Source: an uncultured Eubacterium sp. (GTDB taxonomy: Bacteria; Bacillota; Clostridia; Lachnospirales; Lachnospiraceae). From it: a stretch of 64,000 bases of DNA. Positions 7,924-26,840 of this stretch are shown piece after piece. Below the pieces are notes generated by a model. It saw nothing but the letters and a program-made list of their open reading frames with translations. It ran no database searches and was not told the origin of the DNA. The stretch lies in the NCBI GenBank assembly GCA_900552795.1, contig USBB01000007.1, positions 1,753 to 65,752 on the forward strand. Direction: 5' to 3'. The stretch's first letter is position 1; the number at the start of each line of letters is the position of its first letter. The position numbers and the translations under genes are program-made.

Positions 7924-7944
7924 GAAGGATTTGGTATTTACAGA

Positions 7945-9572: not shown

Positions 9573-9577
9573 GTTAT

Positions 9578-9628
9578 AAAGAGTGAGATGACTATTTTCC
9601 AATGAATAGTCATCTCACTCTTTTTTTA
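9578..9628 (+). terminator. Strong intrinsic terminator
   Basis: Perfect 19 bp stem AAAGAGTGAGATGACTATT/AATAGTCATCTCACTCTTT followed by TTTTTTT. Confidence 0.85.
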
Positions 9629-9746
9629 TTGAAGTCGTGTTTTAGTTTGCGTGGTGTGAAATAATGCTAAGATGAGTTGATGAGGAAATACAACTTGACT
9701 TAGAGTTCACTCCAAGGTGTATAATAGCAGCTAGAAAGCAGGTTTT

Positions 9747-11492
9747 ATGAAAATTATAAAAGATCTCTGGTGGTTTTTTCGTCAGGAGAAAAGGCGCTAT
9801 CTGATTGGGATTATTTCTCTGAGTTTGGTGGCGGTTTTAAATCTTATTCCACCTAAAGTTATGGGAACGGTTATCGACCGTGTGACGGCGGGCGATTTAA
9901 CACACTCTGAATTACTATTAAATTTATTGTGGCTAGTCTTATCAGCAGTTGCCATGTATTTTTTGCGTTACATTTGGCGCATGTACATTTTTGGAACGTC
10001 TTATCGTTTGGGGCAAATTATGCGCTTTAGGCTTTTTGACCATTTCACAAAAATGTCGCCGAGTTTTTATCAAAAATACCGAACAGGTGATTTGATGGCG
10101 CATGCAACGAATGATATTAATGCCTTGACACGTTTAGCTGGTGGTGGTGTGATGTCAGCAGTTGATGCCACGATTACAGCCATGGTAACCTTAGTTACCA
10201 TGTTTTTAACGATTTCTTGGCAAATGACCTTGGTTGCCATTATTCCGTTGCCGTTCATGGCTTATGCAACCAGTCGTTTAGGACGTCAAACGCACAAGGC
10301 GTTTAGTCAATCTCAAGCGGCTTTTTCAGAGCTTAACAACAAGGTTCAAGAGTCGGTTTCTGGTATCAAGGTGACTAAATCCTTTGGTTACCAAGATGAT
10401 GAGTTACAGTCTTTCCAAGAGACCAATGAAATGACTTTCAAGAAAAATATGACGACCATGAAGTATGATGTCATGTTTGACCCTTTGGTGCTCTTATTTA
10501 TCGGAGCAAGCTATGTGTTAACGTTATTTATGGGAGCAATCATGGTTGCGGCCGGTCATGTGACGGTCGGTAGTCTGGTAACGTTTATTACTTACTTAGA
10601 TATGCTTGTCTGGCCTTTGATGGCGATTGGTTTTTTATTCAATATGGTGCAACGTGGATCGGTTTCCTATGAGCGAATTAGTCAGCTATTGCAACAAAAA
10701 TCAGATGTTAAAGAAGCCGAAAATCCACTCCCAACGATTAAAAATGGGCGTTTGGTTTACGATATCGATGCTTTTCACTATGAAAATGAAGAAACGCTTG
10801 CGGATATTCATTTTGCGCTTGAACAAGGTCAGACTTTGGGCTTAGTTGGGCAAACAGGTTCTGGAAAGACAACTTTAATTCGCTTGCTACTGCGGGAATA
10901 TGATTTGCAAGAGGGACAAATCACGCTTGACGGGCATGATATTAGAGAATATCGATTGGCTGATTTACGTCGCTTGATTGGCTATGTTCCCCAAGAACAA
11001 TTTTTATTTGCGACGAGTATTTTAGAAAATATTCGTTTTGGAAATCCGAAAAGCTCTTTGGCGCAGGTTGAAGCAGCGGCTAAATTAGCAAGGGTTTATG
11101 ACGATATTGTAGCAATGCCTGACGGTTTTGAGACAGTGATTGGTGAAAAGGGTGTCAGTCTGTCTGGTGGGCAAAAGCAACGTATTGCCATGAGTCGTGC
11201 CATGATTCTTGAGTCTGATATTTTAATTTTAGACGATTCTCTTTCAGCGGTTGATGCCAAGACCGAGCATGCGATTATTGAAAATCTTAAAGAAACACGG
11301 CAGAATAAATCAACGATTATCACGGCGCATCGTTTAAGTGCAGTGGTTCATGCTGATTTGATTTTGGTGCTGCAAGACGGGCATATTATTGAGCGTGGTC
11401 GTCATGAGGAACTTATTGAACAAGGTGGTTGGTACGCTGATACCTATGAAGCTCAACAATTAGAAATGGAAGGAGATGCTGATGAAGAATAA
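9747..11492 (+). CDS. ABC exporter, fused permease/ATPase (heterodimer subunit A)
   Basis: Six-TM N-terminus, Walker A GQTGSGKTT, and canonical LSGGQKQR signature. A TGTATAAT -10 lies upstream. Confidence 0.85.
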   Translation: MKIIKDLWWFFRQEKRRYLIGIISLSLVAVLNLIPPKVMGTVIDRVTAGDLTHSELLLNLLWLVLSAVAMYFLRYIWRMYIFGTSYRLGQIMRFRLFDHFTKMSPSFYQKYRTGDLMAHATNDINALTRLAGGGVMSAVDATITAMVTLVTMFLTISWQMTLVAIIPLPFMAYATSRLGRQTHKAFSQSQAAFSELNNKVQESVSGIKVTKSFGYQDDELQSFQETNEMTFKKNMTTMKYDVMFDPLVLLFIGASYVLTLFMGAIMVAAGHVTVGSLVTFITYLDMLVWPLMAIGFLFNMVQRGSVSYERISQLLQQKSDVKEAENPLPTIKNGRLVYDIDAFHYENEETLADIHFALEQGQTLGLVGQTGSGKTTLIRLLLREYDLQEGQITLDGHDIREYRLADLRRLIGYVPQEQFLFATSILENIRFGNPKSSLAQVEAAAKLARVYDDIVAMPDGFETVIGEKGVSLSGGQKQRIAMSRAMILESDILILDDSLSAVDAKTEHAIIENLKETRQNKSTIITAHRLSAVVHADLILVLQDGHIIERGRHEELIEQGGWYADTYEAQQLEMEGDADEE

Positions 11493-13227
11493 TGCAAATC
11501 AATGGCGGGTTTTTAAGCGTCTCATGAGCTATCTCAAGCCATATAAATTTTTGACAGCCGTGGCTTTAGCTTTGCTATTGTTGACGACGGTGGTAAGAAG
11601 TGTCATTCCTTTGATTGCTTCTTACTTTATCGACCATTTTTTGACTGATATGAATCAGACAGCCATGTTGATTTTGGTTGGTTATTATCTCATGTATGTC
11701 TTGCAGACGATTATCCAATATTTAGGGAATTTCTATTTTGCGCATGTGTCATACAGCGTTGTCAGAGAGATTCGTCGAGATGCTTTTGCCAATATGGAAA
11801 AATTGGGAATGGCTTATTTTGACCAGACGCCAGCAGGTTCGATTGTGTCGCGTTTGACCAATGATACGGAAGCTGTCAGTGATATGTTTTCAGGGATTTT
11901 GTCTAGTTTTATTTCAGCGATTTTCATTTTCACGGTAACGTTATTGACCATGTTAAGATTGAACGCTGTTTTGACGGGCTGGGTTGCCATTTTTCTCCCC
12001 TTTATTTTTATTTTGGTTAATCTTTATCGTAAGAAGTCGGTTGCAGTCATTGAAAAAACACGTGCTTTGTTGTCGGATATTAACAGTAAACTTTCTGAGA
12101 GTATTGAAGGGATACGTATCATTCAATCTTTTAGTCAAGAGGACCGTTTGAAAGACGAATTTGAAGCGATTAATGAGGAGCATGTGCTCTATGCCAATCG
12201 TTCCATGGCGTTAGATAGTCTTTTTCTTCGTCCAGCTATGTCGCTGTTAAAACTCCTTGCTTATGCTATTTTAATGGCTTATTTTGGTTTTCGTGGCATG
12301 GAAATTGGGATTTCAGCAGGGTTAATGTACGCTTTCATTCAGTATGTTAATCGATTATTTGACCCTTTGATTGAAGTGACGCAGAATTTTTCAACGCTAC
12401 AAACGTCAATGGTTTCAGCTGGTCGTGTGTTTGATTTGATTGATGAACGGCAGTACGAACCTGAACAGAAAAATGGCGAAGCAACCGTGCAAGCTGGGAA
12501 TATTGAATTTAAAAATGTCAGCTTTTCTTATGACGGTGAACGCCAAATTTTAGATAATATCTCATTTAAGGTAAATCAAGGCGAAACGATTGCCTTTGTT
12601 GGCTCGACAGGTTCTGGCAAATCATCGATTATCAATGTTTTCATGCGCTTTTATGAATTTCAGTCTGGAGAAGTTTTGCTTGACGGCGTTGATATTCGTG
12701 AGTATCCTAAAGAAGAGTTGCGCCGTAATATCGGTCTCGTTTTGCAAGATCCTTTCTTATATCATGGTACAATTAAGTCCAATATCAAGATGTATCAGGA
12801 TATTTCAGACGAAGCTGTTCAAGCCGCTGCGGCATTTGTAGATGCTGACCAATTCATTCAAAAATTACCTGAAAAATACGAGACAAAAGTCACCGAACGT
12901 GGTTCGAGTTTTTCAACAGGGCAACGTCAATTATTAGCTTTTGCAAGAACCGTGGCTAGTCAGCCTAAAATCCTTATCCTTGATGAAGCGACAGCCAATA
13001 TTGATTCTGAAACCGAAACCATTGTTCAAGAATCATTGAAAAAAATGCGCCAAGGTCGGACAACGATTGCTATTGCACACCGTTTATCAACGATTCAAGA
13101 TGCTAATTGCATTTACGTGCTGGACAAAGGCAAGATTATCGAATCTGGCAGCCACGACGAACTCCTTAGCCAAAAAGGCACTTACTATCGCATGTATCAA
13201 TTACAAGCAGGCATGATGGAAAACTAA
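11476..13227 (+). CDS. ABC exporter, fused permease/ATPase (heterodimer subunit B, degenerate signature)
   Basis: Walker A GSTGSGKSS; signature degenerated to FSTGQRQ, as in PatB/LmrD-type partners. Overlaps the upstream gene by 17 nt. Confidence 0.85.
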   Translation: MLMKNNANQWRVFKRLMSYLKPYKFLTAVALALLLLTTVVRSVIPLIASYFIDHFLTDMNQTAMLILVGYYLMYVLQTIIQYLGNFYFAHVSYSVVREIRRDAFANMEKLGMAYFDQTPAGSIVSRLTNDTEAVSDMFSGILSSFISAIFIFTVTLLTMLRLNAVLTGWVAIFLPFIFILVNLYRKKSVAVIEKTRALLSDINSKLSESIEGIRIIQSFSQEDRLKDEFEAINEEHVLYANRSMALDSLFLRPAMSLLKLLAYAILMAYFGFRGMEIGISAGLMYAFIQYVNRLFDPLIEVTQNFSTLQTSMVSAGRVFDLIDERQYEPEQKNGEATVQAGNIEFKNVSFSYDGERQILDNISFKVNQGETIAFVGSTGSGKSSIINVFMRFYEFQSGEVLLDGVDIREYPKEELRRNIGLVLQDPFLYHGTIKSNIKMYQDISDEAVQAAAAFVDADQFIQKLPEKYETKVTERGSSFSTGQRQLLAFARTVASQPKILILDEATANIDSETETIVQESLKKMRQGRTTIAIAHRLSTIQDANCIYVLDKGKIIESGSHDELLSQKGTYYRMYQLQAGMMEN

Positions 13228-13417
13228 GGGAGTGAGACAAATAAGTCTCCAGTAGAGACTTTATTCATGAGCCTAAAAATTAAAAGGTGAATCAGTAGTT
13301 TCGCAGAAACTTGATTTCTCAGCAAATCTTAATTTCTTGTTGCTGACCTAAAACGGTCTATCCCCAGATTGTTGAAGTCCAAACTACTGCGTCTTGTAAA
13401 TGATAACTATGTAAACA

Positions 13418-13456
13418 AAGAAGCTGAGCACTTTTTGTCCCAGCTTCTTTTTTAGT
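13418..13456 (+). terminator. Intrinsic terminator
   Basis: AAAGAAGCTG…CAGCTTCTTT followed by TTTTT. Confidence 0.5.
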
Positions 13457-13566
13457 CTCTAAAACATGACAAAAGTCATGTGATGTTATGACATTATGAG
13501 CTAAAAAGCTTGGCTATTTTTTCATAAAATAAATTTATCACAGATGAGAAAATTGGAGATAATGAA

Positions 13567-14445
13567 ATGATAACAGTTGAGAATTTATCTAAAACAATTA
13601 AAGGAAAGCCGATTTTGCAAGACATTTCCTTTGAAGTAGCTGCTGGAGATTGTGTGGCATTGATTGGTCCTAATGGTGCTGGTAAAACAACCTTGATGTC
13701 ATGCTTGTTAGGTGATTTGAAAATCAGCAAAGGAAAGATAGTCATCAATGCTTTAGCACCGAAAAGTCAGCAATTAAAAGAAATCGTCGCCGTGTTACCA
13801 CAGGAAAATCGTTTGCCGCAAAAGTTAAGAGTGTCTGAACTCATTGACTTTTTCAAGTCCATTGCCAAGACACCTTTAGCTGACCAAGAAATTGATAAGA
13901 TTTTGCAATTTAGTGAGGAACAAAAAGCCCAATTGACAGAGAAATTGTCTGGTGGACAAAAACGCTTATTAGCATTTGTCTTATGCCTTATTAGCCAACC
14001 TAAAATTCTTTTCTTAGACGAACCAACGGCAGCAATGGATACCTCAACACGTCAGCATTTTTGGCAGATTATCCAAAGTCTGAAAGCAAAGGGCGTAACG
14101 ATTTTTTATTCGAGCCATTATATTGAAGAAGTGGAACATACGGCAGAACGCATTTTGGTCTTGCATCATGGAAAATTGCTGCGTGATACGACACCGTTTG
14201 CCATGCGAGAAGCTGAACATGAAAAACAGTTGACTTTACCAAAAAACTTTTTGCCGATAGTGGAAAAATTACCACACATTGATAATATTGAGCTGAAAAA
14301 CGACACGGTGACATTCATGACTAAAGAGATTGATAGTGTCTGGCAGAAATTGCAAGAGCAAGGTTGTCAGATTGCCGATATTGAAATTCAAAATAAAACG
14401 TTATTAAACACATTGTTTGACCAAACACAGGAGGATGAAAAATGA
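13567..14445 (+). CDS. ABC transporter ATP-binding protein (ABC-2 type)
   Basis: Walker A GPNGAGKTT, signature LSGGQKRL, Walker B ILFLDEP. Confidence 0.85.
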   Translation: MITVENLSKTIKGKPILQDISFEVAAGDCVALIGPNGAGKTTLMSCLLGDLKISKGKIVINALAPKSQQLKEIVAVLPQENRLPQKLRVSELIDFFKSIAKTPLADQEIDKILQFSEEQKAQLTEKLSGGQKRLLAFVLCLISQPKILFLDEPTAAMDTSTRQHFWQIIQSLKAKGVTIFYSSHYIEEVEHTAERILVLHHGKLLRDTTPFAMREAEHEKQLTLPKNFLPIVEKLPHIDNIELKNDTVTFMTKEIDSVWQKLQEQGCQIADIEIQNKTLLNTLFDQTQEDEK

Positions 14446-15173
14446 TTGCTTTATTGAAAATTGAATGGATTAAAACATGGCGTTTTTGGATGACCTTTGT
14501 TTTGTCGATTGGTATGCCTGTTTTCTTTTTCTTGTTTTTCTCAGGTATGGAACTGTCGTCGAATTCTGAAGAACAAAAAGTGCTTGTGACAGCTTACATG
14601 CTGACAATGACAGCTTTTTCTATGTCAAGTTTTGGATTTTTCTCATTTCCAGCTATGCTTGTTGAGGATAAAACAAGCTATTGGTTGACTTACATTGAGC
14701 ATTCTTCTATCCCTGTTTGGCAGTATTATTTGGTAAAAGTGATTCGTGTCTTGTTTTGTTTCTTACTTTCTATCGTGGCGACCTTTTTAGTTGGAGCTAT
14801 TTTCCGCGGGGTGAGCATGCCACTTAGTCGTTGGTTTGGAGCAGGTGCTTTGTTGTTGGTATCAAGTTTCCTTTTCTTAGCATTTGGGCTATTGATTTCA
14901 CAAATTAAATCACAACAATTAATGACGATTGTCGGAGATATTTCTTTTATTGGTTTAGCCATTATCGGTGGTTCATGGATGCCGATTGAGAATTTCCCAG
15001 ACTGGATGCAAAAGATTTCTAAAGTAACACCAGTTTATCATGTGAATCAATTGGTGACACAGTTTGCTCAAAAGGGGCAGGTAAACGGCAAGTCCTTGAT
15101 TATCATACTCGGCTATGTCATAATGATAGCAGCATTAGCGCTTATGATTAAGAATAAAACTGAGGTTAAATGA
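14442..15173 (+). CDS. ABC-2 family permease
   Basis: Six hydrophobic segments; start overlaps the ATPase stop codon (translationally coupled). Confidence 0.7.
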   Translation: MIALLKIEWIKTWRFWMTFVLSIGMPVFFFLFFSGMELSSNSEEQKVLVTAYMLTMTAFSMSSFGFFSFPAMLVEDKTSYWLTYIEHSSIPVWQYYLVKVIRVLFCFLLSIVATFLVGAIFRGVSMPLSRWFGAGALLLVSSFLFLAFGLLISQIKSQQLMTIVGDISFIGLAIIGGSWMPIENFPDWMQKISKVTPVYHVNQLVTQFAQKGQVNGKSLIIILGYVIMIAALALMIKNKTEVK

Positions 15174-16261
15174 TGTTGAAAAGAATTAGGGGCATTCATC
15201 CGTTATTTTATATGCCATTAGCATTTCTAGCATTCCCCGTTTTAGGGGCATTCTTTTTTGATTACCCAACTTGGACACTTGGGATAACTTTTCTGTTTTT
15301 ACTAAGCTATTTATTTCTCACACATTTTGAAGAAAATATCCTAACAAACCTTTGCTGGATTTTTATGCTACTTTATGTTGTTTATATGACAATTTATGTA
15401 GATGGTGGCATGATGTGGTTTACCTTTTATTTTAATAGTTTGCTAGTTTTTCGATTTCAAGATAATTACACTTCCTTTCGATTTCTCGCCTATGATTTAG
15501 CAATGCTGTTTATGATTATTTCTGGTGTCAGTTTGGCAGATGACTTATCGTCACAAGTAATGATTTTTTTGGTTCCTGTTGTTAATTATGGCATTTTAGT
15601 TTATTGGATGGATGATCGAAAAAATGAAATTCAACGAAAAGCAATCATGGAAAAGAATCGCACCATTAATCTTTTATTGGCTGAAAATGAGCGAAACCGT
15701 ATTGGGCGTGATTTGCATGATACTTTGGGGCACGTTTTTGCGGCAATGACCTTAAAAACAGAATTAGCACTCAAGCAATTAGAAAAAGAAAAATATGACC
15801 TTGTCAAAAAAGAGTTGGAAGAATTGAATCAAACCAGTCGTTCTTCCATGCATGATGTCAGAAACATTATCAATAATCTCAAATTCAGAACGGTGAGCGA
15901 AGAAATTGAGCATTTGAATGAGTTTTTTGCCATGACAGATATTGATTATCAGCTGCAAAATGATTTGAATGTGGAAGCCATGGCACCCTTGATGCAGTCG
16001 AGTATCGGTATGATTTTGCGTGAATTAAGCAATAACGTCATCAAGCACAGCCAAGCGCAAACTTGCCGTATTCACCTTTTTGAAAACCAAGAAAAATTAG
16101 TGATGACAATTACAGATGATGGAGTTGGTTTTGACGACTTAACAGGAAATGAATTAAAATCCATTCGTGACCGTTTGCTGTTGGTCAAGGGAGATGTGGA
16201 GATTTTATCCCAAGCTAAACCAACCATGATTCAAGTTAGTATCAGTTCAAAGGAGAATTAA
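15170..16261 (+). CDS. Sensor histidine kinase (HisKA_3 / NarL-partner type) with a multi-TM sensor domain
   Basis: Five or six N-terminal TM helices, H-box [15 protein letters not shown], and HATPase_c (…ITDDGVGF…). Confidence 0.8.
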
Positions 16262-16262
16262 G

Positions 16263-16859
16263 ATGAAATTGTTAGTTGCCGAGGACCAATCCATGTTGCG
16301 AGACGCGCTGTGCCAATTGCTTCTTATGGAAGATGATGTCGATGAGATTTTGCAAGCAGGAGATGGCGCGCAAGCTATTGGCATATTGCAAGTGGAAAAT
16401 GTTGATGTGGCTATCCTTGATGTGGAAATGCCGAAAAAATCTGGTCTGGATGTTTTGGAATGGATTCGAAAACACAAGGAAATGAAAGTGATTATTGTGA
16501 CCACGTTTAAGCGCGTGGGCTATTTTGAACGAGCCGTTAAGGCAGGTGTTGACGCTTATGTCCTAAAAGATCGCTCAACATCAGAACTCATGACGACCAT
16601 TCACACGGTGCTTGCAGGGAAAAAGGAATACTCACCAGAGCTCATGGAAACCATGATGACCCAAGATAACCCACTTAGCCAACAAGAAAAACGCATATTA
16701 CAATTAATATCACTTGGCAAAACAAACCAAGAAATCGCTGATACCCTTTACCTCTCAAACGGAACTGTCCGAAATTACATCTCATCTATCCTTAACAAAT
16801 TATCCGCCAACAACCGCGTAGAAGCCGCAAGAATCGCCGAAGAACACGGATGGGTGTAA
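16263..16859 (+). CDS. Response regulator, NarL/LuxR family
   Basis: REC domain (D at VAILDVEMP) plus a C-terminal LuxR HTH (…[24 protein letters not shown]…). Confidence 0.85.
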
Positions 16860-17216
16860 GGGGAAATTTTTTTCTAGCTGAAAGCAACTGCTTGGCAATG
16901 TAATATTTGTTAATAAAAACGCATTCTTAAAAAAGTTGACACCGTGTGTACTTTTTGTTTCTGAGATGAGGTGTTAGAAAATTCATCTCAAATTATATAT
17001 GTCTTTTTGACTATCTTTTTATATCCTCTTAAATGTCCGAAAAGCTTTATTTTATAGGATATACGGACATTTTTACTTGAACTGTCATCGGGAGAATGGA
17101 AATATCTCAATCAGGCTGAAAAAGAAGTCTGTCAGTTTTTAAGAACAGAGGAACGTCTAAATACAGAATTGAAGCGCTGACACTATGATAACTTCTTTGA
17201 CAGCGAGAAAGAATGG

Positions 17217-17432
17217 TTGGAATATGAGTTAGAAAAGTTACGAGAATATATTACAGACGATATTAACGAGAAAAGTATTGTAGTGTCCGACCTTTACCCA
17301 ATCAAAGAATTTATCCAACATTTGAAGTTTCAAAAACTGTTAGACTGCTATGATGATTTATACAGTATGGATATGTTTTGGGAAAGCATAGAAGGACATA
17401 AATATAGGACACCTTATCAAGTCGTGAAATGA
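17217..17432 (+). CDS. Hypothetical small protein (possibly a disrupted gene)
   Basis: 71 aa ORF in a region with no convincing coding signal; a downstream alternative frame continues. Confidence 0.2.
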   Translation: MEYELEKLREYITDDINEKSIVVSDLYPIKEFIQHLKFQKLLDCYDDLYSMDMFWESIEGHKYRTPYQVVK

Positions 17433-17740
17433 TGAATCCGAACTCGAAAGAGGATATGGAACTGTTATCGAAATTACCGTGGGTAACGGGTAAATTTGAT
17501 GATAATGACGAGTAACCTTTTTCCTTTTGCATGGAAGATACAGCAAACAAAAAGCCCAGTAAAGAGTGCAAAGCACCACCAATGGTGGCAAGGCTCTTGA
17601 CAGGGCTTTTTCTTTTCTGTGGAGGGTAATCAAGAGGAAGAAAAGATAAAATTTGATTTGTGGTAAATCGGATAATATCAATGAAATTGTCACGGTACAA
17701 GTTTGGGCTATATAAGGAATAGCAACTGGAAGATTGTTGG

Positions 17741-17783
17741 ATAAAAGAAAAAGGCTTGCAGTTCTGTATTGATTTGCAAGCCT
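17741..17783 (-). terminator. Intrinsic terminator of the TetR gene
   Basis: AGGCTTGCA…TGCAAGCCT followed by a T-run on the minus strand. Confidence 0.6.
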
Positions 17784-17790
17784 AAATATA

Positions 17791-18348
17791 TTATTTATAC
17801 TTCTGGAAAATCCCGACTAATAAAGTATCTATCGCTTCAGCTAATTCAAATCTAACTTTATCTGAGGCAGAAAAAGCGTTTCCTAATTGCAAAGTTGTAT
17901 AACCGTGAATTATTCCAGTAAGCATATTTAATATTTCAAGTGTTTTGTCTTTGTTAAGACTGCACGATTGGATAAGAGTAGTTAATAATGAAAGATAGTT
18001 GTTAAAAATGGTTGCTGTTTCCTCTGTTCCGTGCCACACAGCCCATTGAATTGTTTCATAAACTCCGGGGTGTTCAATCATATAGTTTAGGTATTCGATA
18101 GAAACTAACTTAATTGCTTCTTTCCCTATTTTTCCAACGGCAATTTTCATCATTCTTTCATTCATGTCACGCATACCATTATGAGCAACTTCTAAAAGAA
18201 GATTATCTAAACTTTCTATGTGATTATATAAAGATGGTGTACGAATGTTTAATTTTTGAGCAACAGCTTTTAACGAAACGTTATTTAATCCTTTTTCATC
18301 TGCTAAGTCTGATGTTGCTTTTATTACTGCTTCTTTAGTGGTTTTCAT
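17791..18348 (-). CDS. TetR/AcrR family transcriptional regulator
   Basis: N-terminal HTH …LNNVSLKAVAQKLNIRTPSLYNHIESLD. Start at MKTT with a GAGGTG RBS. Confidence 0.8.
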   Translation of the reverse strand: MKTTKEAVIKATSDLADEKGLNNVSLKAVAQKLNIRTPSLYNHIESLDNLLLEVAHNGMRDMNERMMKIAVGKIGKEAIKLVSIEYLNYMIEHPGVYETIQWAVWHGTEETATIFNNYLSLLTTLIQSCSLNKDKTLEILNMLTGIIHGYTTLQLGNAFSASDKVRFELAEAIDTLLVGIFQKYK

Positions 18349-18525
18349 AGTTATGCACCTCATTCAAAATATCATACAAACACAATTCTAGCTAATTGAA
18401 TTAGTGTAGTCAATAACACAATTAGAAAATTATGATTATTTATTGACTTTCCTACAAAAACATTTTAAAATACTAATTGAATTAGTTAAATAACTATTTG
18501 AAGTAGTATTTTGAGGAGTGATTAT

Positions 18526-19221
18526 ATGTGTACAAGATTTGTTTACAATGGTATAGATAAAATTGTTGGTTTTAATTTTGATATTGACCTTTCTGTATGG
18601 GAGCATACTGTAATTACCGAAGAAAATAGATTTTATATTGGTATTAAAATGCCTGACGGTATGTATCATTCATTTCATGGGATAAATAAAAATGGTAATG
18701 TAGGAACACTTCTTTATGTTCATGGTAATGAAAATGCAAGGTATATAGAAAGCGAGGATTGTATTACAATATCTGAATTAACAGAAAAATTCATTAAGGC
18801 AGAGATTTCTTTTGATAAAGCCTTGGACATTGTTAAAAAGAAAAAAATTATTTATGCACCAGATGCTACTATGCAAGCTATGCTTTCTGATAAAAAAGGA
18901 CGAGTTTTAATTATTGAACCCGGAATTGGGTATAGATATGAACAAGAAAATTTTTCACTTATTACAAATTATTCTATTCTAAAACCAGATATAACAAAGC
19001 CGTACATTGTTTCTGGGGATACAAGATACGAAGTGGCTAAAGAGTTATTGGCAGGATATGATAAAGATTTTTCAGTAAATGACGCATTTAAAGTATTAAA
19101 ATCTGTTTCTCAAAAAGACTTGTGGGCAACTAGGGTTTCATTTGTATATTCTACAGAAAAAAATAAAGTTTATTATGTCTTGAACAATGATTTTAGTAAT
19201 GTATTTGAATTTCAGTTTTAA
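18526..19221 (+). CDS. Ntn-hydrolase of the choloylglycine hydrolase / linear amide C-N hydrolase family (BSH/PVA-like)
   Basis: Begins MCTRF…; Cys2 is the Ntn nucleophile typical of this family. GAGGAG RBS present. Shorter than classical BSH (~232 aa). Confidence 0.55.
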   Translation: MCTRFVYNGIDKIVGFNFDIDLSVWEHTVITEENRFYIGIKMPDGMYHSFHGINKNGNVGTLLYVHGNENARYIESEDCITISELTEKFIKAEISFDKALDIVKKKKIIYAPDATMQAMLSDKKGRVLIIEPGIGYRYEQENFSLITNYSILKPDITKPYIVSGDTRYEVAKELLAGYDKDFSVNDAFKVLKSVSQKDLWATRVSFVYSTEKNKVYYVLNNDFSNVFEFQF

Positions 19222-19498
19222 TACTAATGAATTTATAAATTTGCAATTATGATAAGAAAGGTTATTATGATAGGACTAAAAAAGCAAGATATAAAAGCAT
19301 TGAAAGTAACTGCTGTGGAAAGTTTTAGGAATAATCTTATACGATTATGCACTACCTAACAGCATTTTATCAACAACTAAATATTTTACAATATTAAAAG
19401 TTCGTACAGACGGTATATTTTGTACGGACTTTTTTCTTGTTCTTCTTTTTGTATTTTCCAAAGATATAGACGGTATCTCCGTTTATATATTTCAGCGT

Positions 19499-19939
19499 AT
19501 GCGGAAAGGAGGTGAGATTATGAACCCATCTTCTTTCGAGCATATCGTTAGAATACAGTTTAATGCTTTGATGATGACTGTTATTAAATGCACAGTAAAA
19601 AACAGAAACAGACAGTTTGCAAGACGTTCTAAGCGTGAAGTTTTATTCTGTGAATTATCAGATACGAAAAATGTTGAATGTGTAACTAAGGATAACTATT
19701 CTTGTGATTACATTTCGTTTGAAGTCTTGAATTTTACAATTCAAATATCAAATGAGAAACTTGCTGTTGCTTTATATAAGTTATCGAATAAAGAGCGTGA
19801 TGTAATTCTATTACGCTATTTTCAAAGTATGAGCGACCAAGAAATAGCCGAATTATATCATGTATCACGTTCTGCTATTTATCGCAGAAGAAGTAACGGA
19901 TTGAAGAAACTAAAAACAGTATTGAAAGAAAGGAATTGA
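19499..19939 (+). CDS. Sigma-70 family protein, region-4 HTH (Tn916 Orf7-like)
   Basis: C-terminal …MSDQEIAELYHVSRSAIYRRRSNGLKKL region-4 HTH. Confidence 0.55.
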   Translation: MRKGGEIMNPSSFEHIVRIQFNALMMTVIKCTVKNRNRQFARRSKREVLFCELSDTKNVECVTKDNYSCDYISFEVLNFTIQISNEKLAVALYKLSNKERDVILLRYFQSMSDQEIAELYHVSRSAIYRRRSNGLKKLKTVLKERN

Positions 19940-19943
19940 ACCA

Positions 19944-20183
19944 ATGAAAAAAGAATATGGCTACCCTACATTAAAAGTAATATGTCAAGCGTCTGCTGGA
20001 AATGAAACTGCCATAAGAGAGATTTTGAAGTTTTATGACGCTTATATATGTAAATTATGCTTGCGTCCGTTTTACCACTCTGAAAGTGGTAAAATCATTA
20101 TGCAGGTTGATGAAGAATTAAAAGGTCAAATCCATACAGAAATGATGAAAGCAATCTTGAAATTTGAAATCAGAGTAAAATAA
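19944..20183 (+). CDS. Small companion protein of the sigma-like factor (Orf8-like position)
   Basis: 79 aa ORF 4 nt downstream of the sigma gene; no recognised domain. Confidence 0.3.
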   Translation: MKKEYGYPTLKVICQASAGNETAIREILKFYDAYICKLCLRPFYHSESGKIIMQVDEELKGQIHTEMMKAILKFEIRVK

Positions 20184-20205
20184 TCATACTACATGAATGA
20201 AAAAC

Positions 20206-20247
20206 GGGAGATACACAGATATTTGTGCTATCTCCCATGTTGTTTTT
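20206..20247 (+). terminator. Intrinsic terminator
   Basis: GGGAGATA…TATCTCCC followed by ATGTTGTTTTT. Confidence 0.55.
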
Positions 20248-20551
20248 GTGTCATATCAAGGCTCATTCAATCGTGGTAAATTCGTGGTAAAATGAATAGT
20301 TTTCTATACTTCAAAATGTTTGAAAGTATAGTGTTTATGCGGATAATCAAAAATCAGATATAAAATTTATCATTAAATTCTTAAATCAAAAAGACAACTG
20401 CCAGGTATAAATAATTGCCAGGTCCTAAATGCCTACAAAAGAAAAAGACAATCAATTTTATTTCTTTGTTATTCTAATAACATGTTAATACCTGAACCTA
20501 ACTTTAGGTCAAGTATTTTTTGTGAATTATCTGTTATAAAGGGAGATTTTT

Positions 20552-20950
20552 ATGTATACAATCGGTCAGATTTCAAAGATGTTTGATTTACCTGTTTCAA
20601 CACTCAGATATTACGATAAAGAAGGCCTTTTCCCTAATATGGAACGAACATCCGGTATTCGTAAATTTTCAGAATCCGAAATAGAAGCTCTTCATGTAAT
20701 TGAATGTCTCAAGAAAACCGGTATGGAAATCAAGGATATAAAACAGTTTATGGACTGGTGTGCTGAAGGTCCTTCTACTTATTCCAACCGAAAAAAACTC
20801 TTTGAGGATAGAAAGAAAGCCCTTGAAGAACAACTTCAAGAGCTTGAAAAAAATATGGCAATGATTAACTTCAAATGTTGGTATTATGAACAAGCTATTT
20901 CTGATGGTAACGAAGAACACCTTAATAAAATTTTTCCTGTTATTCCTTAA
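20552..20950 (+). CDS. MerR family transcriptional regulator
   Basis: MYTIGQISKMFDLPVSTLRYYDKEGLF HTH plus coiled-coil dimerisation region. A palindrome ACCTAAcTTTAGGT lies about 55 nt upstream. Confidence 0.8.
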   Translation: MYTIGQISKMFDLPVSTLRYYDKEGLFPNMERTSGIRKFSESEIEALHVIECLKKTGMEIKDIKQFMDWCAEGPSTYSNRKKLFEDRKKALEEQLQELEKNMAMINFKCWYYEQAISDGNEEHLNKIFPVIP

Positions 20951-21281
20951 CAAAGGTAACACTCTTCCCGTTTTCAGTCAGCGTAAGCTTCTTTTTTTCT
21001 AAAGAATATGTATAAGAAGTTTCTTCCTTTGTGCCAAATATTTCTCTGCTTATTTTAATTTTATCTCCATCCAAAGTATAAGTCAGACTTATGGCAATTT
21101 CCTCTCCTAATGAAACAACACCGGTGCCATCCTCGTTAAAAACATATACTGTATCAGTTCCGTCCTCTGATTTCCATGTTCCCGGCAAAGTTTCTTTGCC
21201 AGCACAGCCTGTAAGCAATATAGAAGTTATTAAAAGCACGACACTCATAGCAGCAAGAAACACTTTTTTTACACAACGCAT
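20940..21281 (-). CDS. Hypothetical lipoprotein
   Basis: Signal peptide with lipobox LLTGC. Start chosen at MRCVKKVF. Confidence 0.5.
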   Translation of the reverse strand: MRCVKKVFLAAMSVVLLITSILLTGCAGKETLPGTWKSEDGTDTVYVFNEDGTGVVSLGEEIAISLTYTLDGDKIKISREIFGTKEETSYTYSLEKKKLTLTENGKSVTFVKE

Positions 21282-21295
21282 ACAAATCCCTCCAA

Positions 21296-22699
21296 TCACA
21301 TATTTTTAATATTTTGTATAATTTGAGGAAACTCCATACCATGCGATGCCTTTACCAAAATATTATCTTTCGTCTCTAAAATATCAGGCAGTACATCAAT
21401 CAAAGCTTCCTTATTATCAAAATGATATGTCCTGCAGCTACATGTATCCGCATGCGCATTTTTATAAGAAATAACGCCGTCAACTATATTTTTTGAAAGC
21501 TTTCCTACTGCAGCCAAAACATCAATGCTGGTCGCTGCAAGATACTCTCCCACTTCAAAATGCAGTTTTTCTTCATTATCTCCAAGCTCAAACATATCAC
21601 CTAATATAGCAACCTTGCGTCCTGCTGACATATTTAATATATCAAGCGCGGCTTTCATAGATATTGGATTGGCATTATAACAGTCATCCAATATAAGATA
21701 TTTATCCGTCTTAATTATATTATTTCTGCCATCAATTGTTTTAAGTTCTTCAATTCCTGACTTTATCTGGTCCGCATTAAGTCCTAACTCTGCTCCGACT
21801 GCTGCTGCTGCAAGCACATTGTAAACCATATGCTTTCCCGGTACCGGTATAATAACATCTATATCCTTAGTTCCGACACCGGATATAACTACCTTAGTAC
21901 CCTCCAATCCGAGTGTTGCAACAGATTTTGCATAAACTCCACTCTTGTTTGATATTCCAAAAAATACAGGTGTCTTACCATTTACATCCGTAACCGTAAC
22001 AAGCTTATCATCGTCTCCGTTAAGTATAACACTGCCATTTTCCTTAAGGCCTTCAAAAATTTCTGCTTTTGCCTTTAATATTCCATCCCTGTTCTTTAAA
22101 TTTTCAAGGTGACACAAACCGATATTTGTAATAACACATATATCAGGTCTTGCAATAGCTGTAAGCCTTGACATCTCGCCAAAATCACTTATACCCATCT
22201 CAAGAACGGCAACCTCATCATCATCTCTTAGTCTGAATATTGTAAGCGGAAGTCCTAATTCGTTATTAAAATTTCCAAGTGTCTTTAATACTCTGTATTT
22301 TTTTCCAAGCACAGAAGCAATAGTCTCCTTAGTACTTGTTTTTCCGACACTGCCTGTAATTCCTACTACCTTTATGTCAAGCACACTTCTATAATATGCT
22401 GCAAGCTGCTTAACAGCCTCCAGCGAAGATTTTACCTGTATGTAAGGGCGTTCTTCATCCGGCAAAGCTTTTTCTGAAATACAGCACATTGCGCCGGCAT
22501 CAAAACATGAACCTATAAAATCATGACCGTCACTTCGCGTTCCTTTTATAGCAATAAAAAGACCTCCCTCACTGACCTTTCTACTATCTGTTGTAATAGA
22601 TGAAATCTCTTTGTCTGCTACTGAAGCACTTCCGTGATAAATTCCATTACACACCCTTGCCATTGCAGCCGGCGTCATTTTTTTCATAGTCTGATTCAT
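21296..22699 (-). CDS. murF: UDP-N-acetylmuramoyl-tripeptide--D-alanyl-D-alanine ligase
   Basis: Mur ligase motif GITGSVGKTSTKE, length and domain order. Confidence 0.85.
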   Translation of the reverse strand: MNQTMKKMTPAAMARVCNGIYHGSASVADKEISSITTDSRKVSEGGLFIAIKGTRSDGHDFIGSCFDAGAMCCISEKALPDEERPYIQVKSSLEAVKQLAAYYRSVLDIKVVGITGSVGKTSTKETIASVLGKKYRVLKTLGNFNNELGLPLTIFRLRDDDEVAVLEMGISDFGEMSRLTAIARPDICVITNIGLCHLENLKNRDGILKAKAEIFEGLKENGSVILNGDDDKLVTVTDVNGKTPVFFGISNKSGVYAKSVATLGLEGTKVVISGVGTKDIDVIIPVPGKHMVYNVLAAAAVGAELGLNADQIKSGIEELKTIDGRNNIIKTDKYLILDDCYNANPISMKAALDILNMSAGRKVAILGDMFELGDNEEKLHFEVGEYLAATSIDVLAAVGKLSKNIVDGVISYKNAHADTCSCRTYHFDNKEALIDVLPDILETKDNILVKASHGMEFPQIIQNIKNM

Positions 22700-22736
22700 A
22701 TTTTAGAAAACCTCTTAGTTAAAATTTTTGATAATT

Positions 22737-23780
22737 TCAAATATATTTTTGCAATGAAATATCTATTATTTTTTGTGTCAGCTCATCATATGACATTCCA
22801 ACAGCCTGTGCCTCCTGAGGTAACAGACTTGTAGGCGTCATACCCGGCAGCGTATTAATTTCAAGACAGAATATATTGCCTTCTTGATCAATCATCTCAT
22901 CAACTCTTGCGTATGTTGTAATACCTACTGCCTCACAGGCTTTCTCTGCCCATCTCATCATTTTTTCCGCCATGTCCTTCTCTATATTTGCAGGACAGGT
23001 TTCCTTTGTGGAACCGTCATATTTATTCTTGTAATCATAAAAACCCTCTAATGGTTCTATCTCAATTACAGGCAAAGCTTTACCGTCAATTACACCTACA
23101 GAAAATTCCCTTCCCTTTATAAACTCTTCCACCATAATGCTGTCTTCATAACCAAATGCAAGCTCAACTGCTTTTTCAAATTCATTCTCATTATTTGCTA
23201 TAGTTACTCCAAGACTCGAACCTCCGCAACATGGCTTTACAACACATGGAAATGGTACATATTCGGCTTTGTGTCCTTTTCTTAACATAATACCTTTTGG
23301 CATAGGAATATTTTCTGTCACAAGCATTTTCTTTGTAATCTGTTTATTCATTGATATTGCGCTGCTTATATAATCCGTTCCGGTATATTTTATACCGTTT
23401 AAATCAAATAATGCCTGTATTCTTCCATCTTCACCGTTAGCTCCGTGAAGCCCGATAAATACAATATCAGCAGCCTTACAAAGTTCAAATACCATATTTC
23501 CCAAAAAACCACGTCCTGATTTTCTTCTTTCATCGGCTAAGTTTTTTACGTCAGACGACTTCTTTCTAAGATACTCAGCCACAATCTCCAGGTTGTTATC
23601 AGCTTTAAAAAACGCATCTGCATCACTGTATTCATCTGTTCCAAGAAATGCATCAACTATATTAGCATTATGTCCGTTTCTTCTTAATGACTCACATACA
23701 AGTCTGCTCGTAACTATTGATACGTCTCTCTCTGAGCTGGTTCCCCCAGCCAAAACTACTATATTCACACTAACCCTCAT
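22737..23780 (-). CDS. ddl: D-alanine--D-alanine ligase
   Basis: ATP-grasp Ddl sequence, 347 aa, immediately upstream of murF. Confidence 0.85.
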   Translation of the reverse strand: MRVSVNIVVLAGGTSSERDVSIVTSRLVCESLRRNGHNANIVDAFLGTDEYSDADAFFKADNNLEIVAEYLRKKSSDVKNLADERRKSGRGFLGNMVFELCKAADIVFIGLHGANGEDGRIQALFDLNGIKYTGTDYISSAISMNKQITKKMLVTENIPMPKGIMLRKGHKAEYVPFPCVVKPCCGGSSLGVTIANNENEFEKAVELAFGYEDSIMVEEFIKGREFSVGVIDGKALPVIEIEPLEGFYDYKNKYDGSTKETCPANIEKDMAEKMMRWAEKACEAVGITTYARVDEMIDQEGNIFCLEINTLPGMTPTSLLPQEAQAVGMSYDELTQKIIDISLQKYI

Positions 23781-23872
23781 TCCTTAAGCGATATATCACT
23801 AAATTTTGCACAAACATTAAATTTAAATAAAGCTATTTGCCTTCGCTTAAACAACAAATAGCCTTATATTAA

Positions 23873-25243
23873 TTATCTTTCATTCAGCGGAACATAACTG
23901 TTATGCTCACCGACATTCTTATATGCCGGTCTTATAATTTTACCGCAGTTTATAAGCTCTTCTATTCTATGTGCACTCCAGCCTGAAATTCTTGCTATGG
24001 CAAATATAGGTGTATAAAGTTCCTTTGGAAGTCCCAAAAGATTGTATACATAACCGCTGTAAAAATCTACATTGGCACTTACACCCTTGTAAACCTTACG
24101 CTCTTTTGCAATCAAATCAGCAGCTATACGCTCAACGTTGCACATAAGTCTGAATTCCTGCTCATGATGCTTTTCAACTGAAAGCTTTTCAACAAAGCCC
24201 TTAAACACTCTCGCACGCGGATCAGACAATGAATATACCGCATGACCCATACCATATATAAGTCCTGTCTTATCAAACACTTCCTTGTGAAGCATAGCGT
24301 CAAGATATGCTGTAAGCTCTTCCTCATCGTCCCAATTCTTAACATTTGTCTTAATATCCTCAAACATATCGACAACCTTAAGGTTTGCACCACCATGTTT
24401 AGGTCCCTTTAAAGATGCCAACGATGAAACTACAGCCGAATATGTGTCTGTCCCCGACGACGTAACAACATGTGTAGTAAATGTAGAGTTATTACCGCCG
24501 CCATGCTCAGCATGAAGAACTAAAGCAATATCAAGTATCTGCGCCTCAAGCGCTGTAAATTTGCCGTCTTCCCTTAACAGATGAAGAATATTTTCAGCTG
24601 TTGACATCTTAGGGTCAGGCTCATGTATTATAAGACTTCCGCCCTTGTATGAATGCTTATACGCACAATAGCTGTACACAGCAAGCAGAGGAAACTCTGA
24701 AATAAGCTGCAGTGACTGGCGGACAACATTCGGCAGACTTATATCATCTGCTTTTGTATCATATGAATATAACATTAAAACACTTCTTGCAAGCGCATTC
24801 ATAATATCGCGGCTTGGCTTTTTCATAATAATGTCACGTACAAAATTAGGCGGTATGCATCTGTATTCGCCAAGTATTGCATTAAAATCCTCAAGTTCCT
24901 GTTTGTCAGGCATCTTACCGAACAATAACAGATATGTTGTCTCTTCAAAACCAAATCTGCCATCAGCATTAAATCCTGCAATTATGTCCTCAACATCATA
25001 GCCGCGGTAATAAAGCTTTCCATCACAAGGATGTGATACTCCGTTTTCATCTGTCTCTGATGCCTTTACCTCTGAAATCTCAGTAAGACCTGTAAGAACA
25101 CCTTTACCGTTTAAATCTCTTAAACCTCTTTTTACTTCATATTTATCATATAAAGCATCATTGATTTTATTGTCTTTGCATCTTGCTGCAAGCTCCTCTA
25201 TCTTTTGTGTCACAACTGAAAAATCTTTTACATCCAACGCCAT
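23873..25243 (-). CDS. Citrate synthase
   Basis: GMGHAVYSLSDPRA catalytic-loop motif; 456 aa. Confidence 0.75.
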   Translation of the reverse strand: MALDVKDFSVVTQKIEELAARCKDNKINDALYDKYEVKRGLRDLNGKGVLTGLTEISEVKASETDENGVSHPCDGKLYYRGYDVEDIIAGFNADGRFGFEETTYLLLFGKMPDKQELEDFNAILGEYRCIPPNFVRDIIMKKPSRDIMNALARSVLMLYSYDTKADDISLPNVVRQSLQLISEFPLLAVYSYCAYKHSYKGGSLIIHEPDPKMSTAENILHLLREDGKFTALEAQILDIALVLHAEHGGGNNSTFTTHVVTSSGTDTYSAVVSSLASLKGPKHGGANLKVVDMFEDIKTNVKNWDDEEELTAYLDAMLHKEVFDKTGLIYGMGHAVYSLSDPRARVFKGFVEKLSVEKHHEQEFRLMCNVERIAADLIAKERKVYKGVSANVDFYSGYVYNLLGLPKELYTPIFAIARISGWSAHRIEELINCGKIIRPAYKNVGEHNSYVPLNER

Positions 25244-25281
25244 GTTTCCTCCTTTTTATAATACTGCGTATTTTTATCATC

Positions 25282-25830
25282 TTATCTTAATCTTGTACAT
25301 TCATATTTTGCATGTGCATTTATACAATTTTTAAGTGATTTTATACGCGTTGCAATATCCGCCTGTTCCACCTCTATATCCATCGAGGCAGCCATGGCAT
25401 CTATCATTTTATCAGTAATTGTACCGCTGTTTTCCTGCAGTACTTCAAGCTTTTTTACATATGTCTCTGCATCAAGAAATGCTTCAAGCACCGGATTTAT
25501 CTGCTCCGTGCTTTCTTCTTTTATATCATCACTGCTTTCTGTCTTTTGAGAATTTTGTAATTCTTTTACATCTTCCGCCTTAACACTTACTTCAAATTTT
25601 TCAGGAAACACCTGCTCAAATCTGTACTTTTGCACCACATCCGGATACTTTACATGATCAACTTCACTCATAAACATATCAAATGGTCTTACATACAAAC
25701 TAAAATCACCATAAAGTGCCTGATAAACAACCATTTTTTCTTTTGTCTCAGAATGATACGCAATACCTATTACCTGATACAGTTTGTCTTTAAAATGTCT
25801 GTAAAATCCGCCCACTACCGGCTCTCTCAT
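25282..25830 (-). CDS. DUF1653 domain protein
   Basis: N-terminal FYRHFKDKLYQVIGIAYHSETKEKMVVYQALYGD matches the DUF1653 pattern. Confidence 0.55.
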   Translation of the reverse strand: MREPVVGGFYRHFKDKLYQVIGIAYHSETKEKMVVYQALYGDFSLYVRPFDMFMSEVDHVKYPDVVQKYRFEQVFPEKFEVSVKAEDVKELQNSQKTESSDDIKEESTEQINPVLEAFLDAETYVKKLEVLQENSGTITDKMIDAMAASMDIEVEQADIATRIKSLKNCINAHAKYECTRLR

Positions 25831-25850
25831 ACTACCCCCATTCCGCGCTC

Positions 25851-26807: not shown

Positions 26808-26840
26808 ATTTTTTTTATTTTATGAAAGGTTTAATATTCT

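What the first reader, a model, noticed from the sequence alone, without database searches (positions are those of the whole stretch)
16860..17800. Abrupt phylogenetic/compositional discontinuity: Streptococcus-type synteny on the left, Clostridia-type on the right
Established knowledge plus seen in sequence: 1-16.9 kb carries the streptococcal arrangement rsmD-coaD-sepM/ylbL and yutD-rlmN-vanZ. The intergenic DNA there is moderate in A+T and the promoters are TGTATAAT-type. From about 17.8 kb onward the genes are a chemoreceptor, split purH with a PurO-type cyclohydrolase, argCJBD/argG and a radical-SAM HemZ-like gene, typical of motile Clostridia/Lachnospiraceae, and the intergenic regions are visibly far more A+T-rich. 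The 0.9 kb between them has no convincing gene. Either the window is chimeric (misassembly or binning artefact), or it records a large inter-class transfer.
Basis: partly seen in the sequence, partly recalled or inferred. Interest (0 to 1): 0.6.

Follow-up and report, generated by a model that had tools for sequence, protein, structure and literature searches.

The report
Chimeric contig joined at shared mobile element
The window is almost certainly two unrelated gut bacteria (Streptococcus gallolyticus and a Lachnospiraceae species) stitched together by an assembler inside a 59-base stretch of a mobile element that both carry, so it is an artefact and not a gene transfer.

Summary
The discontinuity is real and lies inside the reported interval. 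Window 1..17533 is S. gallolyticus chromosome: 99.2-99.9% identical to complete genomes such as CP050959, and exact for up to 6,235 bp next to the break. Window 17593..64000 is chromosome of a gut Lachnospiraceae with a genome of about 2.2 Mb, exact for 15,108 bp to one metagenome scaffold. GC is equal in the two halves (0.37), but the tetranucleotide signature (r 0.75 between halves, 0.90-0.92 within) and codon usage (RSCU r 0.32 against 0.93-0.98) change abruptly.

The switch is a single clean crossover inside a 59-bp run (17534..17592) that is identical in both parents. That run sits in a roughly 400-bp homologous fragment (87% identity) of a promiscuous Tn916-family integrative mobilizable element (IME). 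S. gallolyticus carries a remnant of the element without int, xis or rep. The Lachnospiraceae carries the TetR-to-HTH_16 part.

Each parent continues differently in independent assemblies. Streptococcus goes on to ADH, GntR and ABC genes. The Lachnospiraceae goes on to Fe-ADH, T2SSE genes and dnaG in a 2.2-Mb long-read contig. Short-read Lachnospiraceae contigs all stop in the element. The hybrid junction was found in no public contig.

Verdict: a chimeric contig caused by a repeat shared between genomes (confidence 0.93). Genuine inter-class recombination is not strictly excluded without reads (about 0.04).

The parts
1..16974 (.). Streptococcus gallolyticus chromosomal segment: asnA, rsmD, coaD, sepM, yutD, rlmN, vanZ, two ABC exporters, an ABC-2 transporter, and a HisKA_3 kinase with a LuxR-type response regulator.
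   Evidence: 99.2-99.9% identical to complete Streptococcus genomes and colinear with CP050959.1 positions about 967,130-984,800. Family assignments.
16263..16859 (+). Response regulator (Response_reg + GerE), the last intact streptococcal gene before the junction.
   Evidence: The exact protein is present in 2,549 collection blocks, including complete S. gallolyticus genomes.
16975..17533 (.). S. gallolyticus copy of an IME remnant. 16975/16990..17073 corresponds to the integrase-side end of the element. 17078..17533 is the 3' part of its HTH regulator gene. int, xis and rep are deleted.
   Evidence: blastn against intact IME copies L018/L020/L022/L025: window 16990..17073 matches IME 14658..14575, and window 17078 onward matches IME 11268 downward. 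Exact identity to Streptococcus genomes runs right up to 17533.
17217..17432 (+). 71-aa ORF, a truncated remnant of the IME's 211-aa HTH_3/HTH_19 regulator.
   Evidence: BLASTP gives 58/63 identical residues to residues 122-184 of the L018 protein.
17265..17669 (.). Segment homologous in both parents (about 87% identity between them). It is the only sequence the two genomes share at this locus.
   Evidence: Streptococcus genomes match the window up to 17669. Lachnospiraceae contigs match it from 17265. Identity between the two parents is 86.8% over 417 bp. Alignment A1.
17534..17592 (.). Crossover core: a 59-bp run that is exactly identical in the S. gallolyticus and Lachnospiraceae copies. 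The chimeric join happened here.
   Evidence: To the left of the core the window is exact to Streptococcus for 1,969-6,235 bp and shows no exact match to the Lachnospiraceae copy. To the right it is exact to L013 for 15,108 bp and matches Streptococcus for only 1 bp. The 58-mer core occurs in at least 119 metagenome contigs with many different flanking alleles.
17593..20365 (.). Lachnospiraceae copy of the IME's left part: TetR (17791..18348, -), a 231-aa protein of unknown function (18526..19221, +), a sigma-70 region-4 protein (19520..19939, +) and an HTH_16 protein (19944..20183, +).
   Evidence: 99.5-100% identical to contigs L011-L013 and L241-L243. About 97.5% identical to intact IMEs. 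Pfam assignments. The right end of the element is fixed by the empty site in L240.
20366..64000 (.). Lachnospiraceae chromosomal segment: MerR, a DUF5640 lipoprotein, murF, ddl, citrate synthase, purH and purO, pheA, argDBJC, argG, a bacteriocin export locus, glyA, a chemoreceptor, aspS, a radical-SAM/HD protein and relA.
   Evidence: 100% identical over 10,721 bp to JAPFDI010000007.1 (L244) and 99.98% to the 2.2-Mb long-read contig L233. Gene families. All of the nearest MurF relatives are Lachnospiraceae.

Best explanation
The window is a chimeric contig.

Two gut bacteria from different classes were present in the sequenced material: Streptococcus gallolyticus (Bacilli) and a Lachnospiraceae species with a genome of about 2.2 Mb (Clostridia). 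Each carries a decayed copy of the same promiscuous Tn916-family integrative mobilizable element. The two copies overlap over roughly 400 bp at about 87% identity. Within that overlap there is one 59-bp run of perfect identity (17534..17592).

An assembler working with a k-mer or overlap length of 59 or less (for example k=55) sees this run as a single shared graph node with two entries and two exits. It resolved the node the wrong way: it entered from the Lachnospiraceae chromosome and left into the Streptococcus chromosome.

Shown here: the identity of both halves, the position of the switch, the shared repeat, the differing native continuations of both parents, and the absence of the hybrid junction elsewhere.

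Inferred: that an assembler made the join rather than a cell. The value of k is a consistency argument only.
For: 1. Left half. 99.2-99.9% identical to eight S. gallolyticus-type genomes or long contigs, and exact for up to 6,235 bp immediately left of the core.

2. Right half. Exact for 15,108 bp to scaffold L013 immediately right of the core, and 100% identical over 10,721 bp to L244.

3. One clean switch inside a 59-bp run that both parents share exactly.

4. The shared run is part of an element that moves between classes. Intact copies sit in unrelated genomes (L018, L020, L022, L025). Its backbone occurs on Enterococcus, Agathobacter, Clostridium and Lachnospira plasmids. Its TetR protein is found in 29,403 collection blocks.

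5. Native continuations differ. Streptococcus continues from the shared segment into ADH', GntR and ABC genes in 8 of 10 places. The Lachnospiraceae with an empty site continues from MerR into Fe-ADH, a T2SSE cluster, CNNM and dnaG, both in a 2.2-Mb long-read contig and in a Logan contig.

6. Every short-read Lachnospiraceae contig stops in or at the element. The overhangs scale with k: 137 nt for k141, 123 nt for k127, 51 nt for a scaffold. That is how contigs behave at a repeat boundary in an assembly graph.

7. The hybrid junction 84-mer has no hit in the metagenome contigs or IMG/VR collections, whereas the core alone has at least 119 hits, none with both kinds of flank. No junction-spanning ORF product is on record.

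8. Both sides consist of housekeeping genes with sharply different codon usage and tetranucleotide signatures.

9. The GC-skew sign flips from +0.14 to -0.25 in the window only. It stays positive downstream in native Streptococcus and stays negative upstream in the native Lachnospiraceae.
Against: - No reads, coverage data or mate pairs are available, so the artefact is inferred from comparative evidence, not demonstrated.
- A clean crossover in 59 bp of identity is also what homologous recombination would leave behind.
- The source assembly and its k-mer size are unknown.
- The window does not extend far enough to show whether the sequence ever returns to a Streptococcus context.
Confidence: 0.93

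Rival explanations
1. Genuine inter-class recombination. Lachnospiraceae DNA (at least 46 kb), or streptococcal DNA (at least 17.5 kb), entered the other organism, for example by conjugative mobilisation. It then recombined with the resident chromosome through the homologous IME fragment, with the crossover falling in the 59-bp identical run.
For: - The junction lies in homologous mobile-element DNA. 59 bp of identity exceeds the usual minimal length for RecA-dependent exchange (established knowledge).
- The element family moves between Bacilli and Clostridia.
- Both organisms live in the gut.
Against: - The supposedly transferred block consists of core housekeeping genes (murF, ddl, gltA, purH/purO, argCJBD/G, glyA, aspS, relA) that are 99.5-100% identical to the donor lineage.
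- The joint copy of the element has no integrase, excisionase, Rep or relaxase.
- None of the Streptococcus or Lachnospiraceae genomes examined carries the junction.
- The GC-skew polarity would be inverted over at least 46 kb.
Confidence: 0.04
2. A post-assembly artefact, not a graph misresolution. Contig-merging, scaffolding, gap-closing or MAG 're-assembly' software joined two correct contig ends through their short terminal overlap in the IME.
For: - Lachnospiraceae contigs from several assemblies really do end within or just beyond this element. A contig end in the right place for overlap-merging is therefore typical.
- The outcome, a single clean switch in an exact overlap, would be the same.
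Against: - This cannot be told apart from a graph-level chimera with the data at hand.
- The Streptococcus parent is unique through this region in isolate genomes and would not normally end there.
Confidence: 0.02
3. A single real organism whose window spans the replication terminus, where converging gene orientation, a GC-skew maximum and low-GC islands are expected. On this reading the phylogenetic contrast would be only apparent.
For: Cumulative GC skew peaks near 20.5 kb and the genes converge there. A low-GC stretch sits at 17.6-20.4 kb.
Against: - Each half is at least 99.5% identical to a different organism's genome.
- The skew does not flip at these loci in either native genome.
- Codon usage differs far beyond the within-genome scatter.
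Confidence: 0.01

Closest known systems
Chimeric contigs in metagenome or mixed-culture assemblies caused by repeats shared between genomes (the class of error targeted by tools such as GUNC, metaMIC and DeepMAsED; own knowledge)
   Same: - Two taxonomically unrelated flanks, each nearly identical to its own reference.
- The breakpoint lies in a short exact repeat that both genomes share through a mobile element.
- Other assemblies break their contigs at the same element.
   Different: Nothing of substance differs. Read-level confirmation is missing. The shared exact run is unusually short (59 bp), and it sits in an otherwise diverged (87% identical) homologous segment.
Tn916/Tn1545-family integrative mobilizable elements with Rep_trans, Xis_Tn916 and a tyrosine integrase (for example the dfrF- or mef(H)-carrying relatives on Enterococcus plasmids)
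   Same: The DNA at the junction belongs to such an element. It has the HTH_16 and sigma-70 region-4 pair (like Tn916 orf8 and orf7), an accessory TetR plus a 231-aa protein, an HTH_3 regulator, and the int-side end.
   Different: Neither copy in the window is intact. The composite lacks int, xis and rep (window 17073/17078 joins IME coordinates 14575 and 11268). The composite as read in the window is made of two different copies from two hosts.
Conjugative, Hfr-like transfer of large chromosomal segments in streptococci (reported within Streptococcus agalactiae; own knowledge, not checked here)
   Same: It would involve tens of kilobases of chromosomal DNA, including housekeeping genes, joined by homologous recombination.
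   Different: The known cases occur within a species and replace homologous DNA. Here the partners belong to different classes and share no homology except about 400 bp of IME. No second crossover is visible.

Membership tests
Chimeric contig caused by a repeat shared between genomes | The two flanks belong to different organisms, and each is nearly identical to an independent reference. | tested here: met
   Left flank 99.2-99.9% to S. gallolyticus genomes. Right flank 99.5-100% to Lachnospiraceae contigs.
Chimeric contig caused by a repeat shared between genomes | The breakpoint falls inside sequence present in both parents. | tested here: met
   A 59-bp exact run at 17534..17592 within the homologous segment 17265..17669.
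Chimeric contig caused by a repeat shared between genomes | Each parent has a different native continuation across the repeat in independent assemblies. | tested here: met
   Streptococcus continues into ADH', GntR and ABC genes. The Lachnospiraceae continues into Fe-ADH, T2SSE genes and dnaG in a 2.2-Mb long-read contig.
Chimeric contig caused by a repeat shared between genomes | The junction is not reproduced in independent data. | tested here: met
   No exact hit for the hybrid 84-mer in metagenome contigs or viral contigs. None of 119 loci carrying the core has both kinds of flank. No junction ORF is on record.
Chimeric contig caused by a repeat shared between genomes | A coverage step and a lack of spanning reads or mate pairs at the junction. 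| not testable with these tools
   No reads or depth data are available.
Genuine horizontally acquired island or ICE-mediated transfer | The foreign block is flanked on both sides by the recipient's chromosome. | not testable with these tools
   The window ends while still in Lachnospiraceae sequence (64000) and in Streptococcus sequence (1).
Genuine horizontally acquired island or ICE-mediated transfer | Integration or transfer machinery is present at the boundary. | tested here: not met
   int, xis and Rep_trans are absent from the composite element. Intact copies of the element have them.
Genuine horizontally acquired island or ICE-mediated transfer | The cargo is accessory, not core housekeeping. 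| tested here: not met
   murF, ddl, gltA, purH/purO, argCJBD/G, glyA, aspS and relA lie on one side. rsmD, coaD, rlmN and asnA lie on the other.
Tn916-family IME (for the DNA at the junction) | Tyrosine integrase, Xis_Tn916, Rep_trans and HTH regulators between defined ends. | tested here: not met
   Only the regulator and accessory part and one end are present: 16990..17073 plus 17078..20365. It is a remnant, not a functional member.
Replication terminus | The GC-skew sign change is present at this locus in the native genome. | tested here: not met
   Skew stays positive downstream in CP050959 and stays negative upstream in contig_332.

The most novel reading that the evidence does not exclude
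The junction is a real molecule: a very recent homologous recombination, mediated by the IME fragment, fused S. gallolyticus chromosome to at least 46 kb of Lachnospiraceae core chromosome (or the reverse). That would be an inter-class, Hfr-like chromosomal transfer captured in a gut sample.
Probability: 0.04. Interest if true: 0.85.

Novelty: not a real feature. Interest (0 to 1): 0.1.

Why it matters
As biology it does not matter. As quality control it does. The source assembly or MAG contains at least 17.5 kb (or at least 46 kb) of DNA from another class. That would contaminate pangenome, HGT and taxonomic analyses, and it could be misreported as a spectacular inter-class transfer.

The case also shows how little shared sequence is enough to cause this. 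A 59-bp exact run inside a decayed, promiscuous Tn916-family IME was sufficient to fuse two genomes. Elements of this family are so widespread in gut Firmicutes (the TetR protein is in more than 29,000 collection blocks) that similar chimeras are likely elsewhere.

Tried and rejected
- Replication-terminus reading of the GC-skew maximum at about 20.5 kb. Rejected because the skew does not flip at either native locus.
- A structured RNA or hidden gene in 16860..17800. Rfam gave no match at E<=1 over 16500..21000. The promoter and terminator scan was at chance level for promoters; two terminator-like hairpins were found, one of them overlapping the 3' end of the core (17590..17609).
- Looking for the source contig or an independent spanning contig. 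The look-ups of the response regulator, MurF, TetR and MerR showed no place that combines Streptococcus and Lachnospiraceae genes. Junction-spanning ORFs of 129 aa and 111 aa are not on record. The hybrid 84-mer is absent from metagenome contigs and viral contigs.
- Species identification of the right half through the GTDB representative genomes. The best MurF hit was only 63% identical (a Lachnospira sp. MAG) and no near-identical representative appeared. Either the representative is missing or the region is masked. Only a family-level assignment is claimed.
- Exact look-up of the 796-aa chemoreceptor failed, probably because the called gene uses a different start; contigs carry a 794-aa version.
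Rejected, because coding and intergenic GC are the same on both sides.
- Function of the IME's 231-aa cargo protein. No Pfam or NCBIfam hit, and only a non-significant PDB hit (E = 0.69) to the N-terminus of a choloylglycine hydrolase.

Full report

Yes. GC content is flat across the window at about 0.37. The exceptions are dips at 17-21 kb and 44-51 kb. Sequence signature, in contrast, changes sharply.
- Tetranucleotide profiles of 4-kb chunks correlate at 0.90 within the left part, 0.92 within the right part, and only 0.75 between them.
- Relative synonymous codon usage correlates at 0.32 between the halves, against 0.93 and 0.98 in split-half controls. Examples: Arg CGT against AGA, Gln CAA against CAG, Leu TTG against CTT.

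- Left: asnA, rsmD, coaD, SepM, YutD, RlmN, VanZ.
- Right: an AICARFT-only PurH plus a PurO-type IMP cyclohydrolase, argD, argB, argJ, argC, argG, a dCache/MCP chemoreceptor, and a radical-SAM + HD protein.

Two sub-claims fail. Intergenic GC is the same on both sides: 0.297 on the left against 0.285-0.297 on the right. The 0.9-kb 'empty' stretch is not featureless (section 3).

**2. Who are the two halves?**

The response regulator that ends at 16859 occurs as an exact protein in thousands of assemblies. Ten long contexts were retrieved.
- Eight of them match window 6262..17669 at 99.2-99.9% and then diverge.
- CP050959.1 also covers window 1..8206 at 99.76%. The whole left part is therefore colinear with one chromosome.
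- CP050959 is listed as Streptococcus gallolyticus in PMC10727937.
- FR824043, which is S. gallolyticus subsp. gallolyticus ATCC BAA-2069 (PMC3173452), matches at 97.9%. It diverges already at 16867, where it carries a WXG100/T7SS locus instead.

The right part was traced through exact look-ups of MurF, ArgG, GlyA and MerR.
- These returned gut-metagenome contigs and NCBI assemblies that match window 17265..62904 at 99-100%.
- Among them are long-read contigs of 2.2-2.3 Mb.
- JAPFDI010000007.1 (L244) is 100% identical over 10,721 bp.
- A scan of GTDB species representatives with MurF returned only Lachnospiraceae-type relatives, the best at 63% identity. The right part is therefore from a Lachnospiraceae. 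The species could not be named.

**3. Anatomy of the junction**

The two sources overlap on the window. Streptococcus genomes match up to 17669 and Lachnospiraceae contigs match from 17265. Within this overlap the two parents are only about 87% identical to each other.

The alignment and exact-extension tests give a single clean switch.
- Left of 17534, the window is exact to Streptococcus for 1,969-6,235 bp and shows no exact match to the Lachnospiraceae copy.
- Right of 17592, the window is exact to scaffold L013 for 15,108 bp and matches Streptococcus for only 1 bp.
- The 59 bp in between (17534..17592) are identical in both parents.

The shared DNA belongs to an integrative mobilizable element of about 6.7 kb.
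- Gene order: HTH_16, sigma-70 region-4 protein, 231-aa protein, TetR, HTH_3 regulator, Rep_trans, Xis_Tn916, tyrosine integrase.
- Intact copies sit in unrelated chromosomal contexts (L018, L020, L022, L025).
- Related backbones occur on Enterococcus, Agathobacter, Clostridium and Lachnospira plasmids.
- Its TetR protein is found in 29,403 blocks of the collection.

S. gallolyticus carries a remnant that has lost int, xis and rep.
- Window 16990..17073 corresponds to the int-side end of the element.
- Window 17078..17669 corresponds to the 3' part of the HTH regulator gene and the spacer after it.
- The 71-aa ORF at 17217..17432 is 92% identical to the C-terminal part of the 211-aa regulator.

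The Lachnospiraceae carries the other portion, window 17265..20365.
- An empty-site contig (L240) fixes the right end of the element at about 20365.
- In this strain the element is interrupted, beyond 17265, by a further repeat.

No Rfam family matches the region.

**4. What lies across the element in each real genome?**

In Streptococcus, the shared segment is followed by a truncated zinc-ADH gene, then GntR and ABC genes, in 8 of 10 contexts.

In the Lachnospiraceae, a 2.2-Mb long-read contig (L239) and a Logan contig (L240) have no element at this site. There MerR is preceded by Fe-ADH (in L239), then a T2SSE cluster, CNNM and, in L240, dnaG.

Every short-read Lachnospiraceae contig that carries the element stops in it or at its edge: L011-L013 and L241-L244. 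The overhangs into the next repeat scale with the assembler's k: 137 nt for a k141 contig, 123 nt for k127, and 51 nt for a scaffold. That is how contigs behave at a repeat boundary in a de Bruijn graph.

GC skew gives an independent check. It flips from +0.14 to -0.25 in the window. It stays positive downstream in native Streptococcus and stays negative upstream in the native Lachnospiraceae. The apparent 'terminus' exists only in the window.

**5. Is the junction seen anywhere else?**

No.
- An 84-nt pattern specific to the hybrid (Streptococcus allele on the left, Lachnospiraceae allele on the right) has no exact match in the metagenome contigs or IMG/VR collections.
These carry many flanking alleles. 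None has both a Streptococcus and a Lachnospiraceae chromosomal flank.
- ORF products that span the junction are not on record.

**6. Explanation**

The most economical reading is a contig-level chimera. A 59-bp exact repeat, shared between two co-occurring gut genomes through a promiscuous IME, forms a node with two entries and two exits for any assembler using k of 59 or less. The path was resolved across genomes. The true Lachnospiraceae path runs into another repeat only about 270 bp further on, which may have favoured the wrong exit. That last point is inference.

Genuine recombination would leave the same clean crossover, so it cannot be excluded without reads. It would, however, require all of the following:
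- fusion of two core chromosomes from different classes;
- blocks full of housekeeping genes at 99.5-100% identity to their source lineages;
- no integration machinery at the joint;
- inverted replication polarity over tens of kilobases;
- no trace of the junction in any other genome.

I put it at about 4%.

**7. Comparison with what is known, and verdict**

The case fits the well-known class of assembly chimeras caused by repeats shared between genomes. The element involved is a decayed member of the Tn916/Tn1545-family IMEs. The copy in the window fails the membership test for a functional element because int, xis and rep are absent.

It is not a biological feature. Its value is as a contamination flag for the source assembly. 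Interest 0.1.

Noticed in passing
window 44950-51600: A low-GC (0.29) island in the Lachnospiraceae half. It is an array of small ORFs (37-152 aa) plus a CPBP/Rce1-like protease (48478..49152). It sits next to a C39-peptidase ABC exporter (41738..43936), a HlyD-like adaptor (40162..41724) and an M50 protease (43991..44932), so it looks like a bacteriocin/immunity locus. It varies strongly between strains: other contigs are only 81-95% identical or rearranged here, while the flanks are above 99%.
   Followed up: partly
window 18526-19221 (+): A 231-aa cargo protein of the very widespread IME, starting MCTRF. It has no Pfam or NCBIfam hit. The only PDB hit is non-significant (E = 0.69) and is to the N-terminus of a choloylglycine hydrolase. 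Function is unknown although the element is carried in tens of thousands of assemblies.
   Followed up: partly
L011 15441-15577 (beyond window 17265 in the native Lachnospiraceae): In the Lachnospiraceae strain the IME's HTH regulator gene is interrupted by an unidentified repeat that begins a gene (MKGNLWMEI...). Contigs from three assemblies stop k-4 nt into it, which suggests a multi-copy insertion element.
   Followed up: partly
L005 and L009, locus 10600-20597 (the position after window 16867): S. gallolyticus subsp. gallolyticus genomes carry a WXG100/YukD/YukC/FtsK-type (type VII secretion) locus directly after the response-regulator gene. CP050959-type strains carry the IME remnant and a truncated ADH there instead. 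This site is a hot spot for variable DNA.
   Followed up: no
window 20366-22699: The GTDB species-representative scan found no MurF closer than 63% identity, although the exact protein is in 55 collection blocks and in NCBI assemblies. The species representative may be masked or missing. If masked, the window may come from that representative genome. This is speculation.
   Followed up: no
window 1-64000, peak at about 20.5 kb: The cumulative GC skew has a maximum with converging gene orientation, which mimics a replication terminus. It is produced by the chimeric join and is absent from both native loci.
   Followed up: yes
window 14428-14492: One Streptococcus long contig (L010) lacks about 63 bp here, at the boundary between the ABC ATPase and permease genes, relative to the window and the other genomes. 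This is a minor strain indel or an assembly difference.
   Followed up: no
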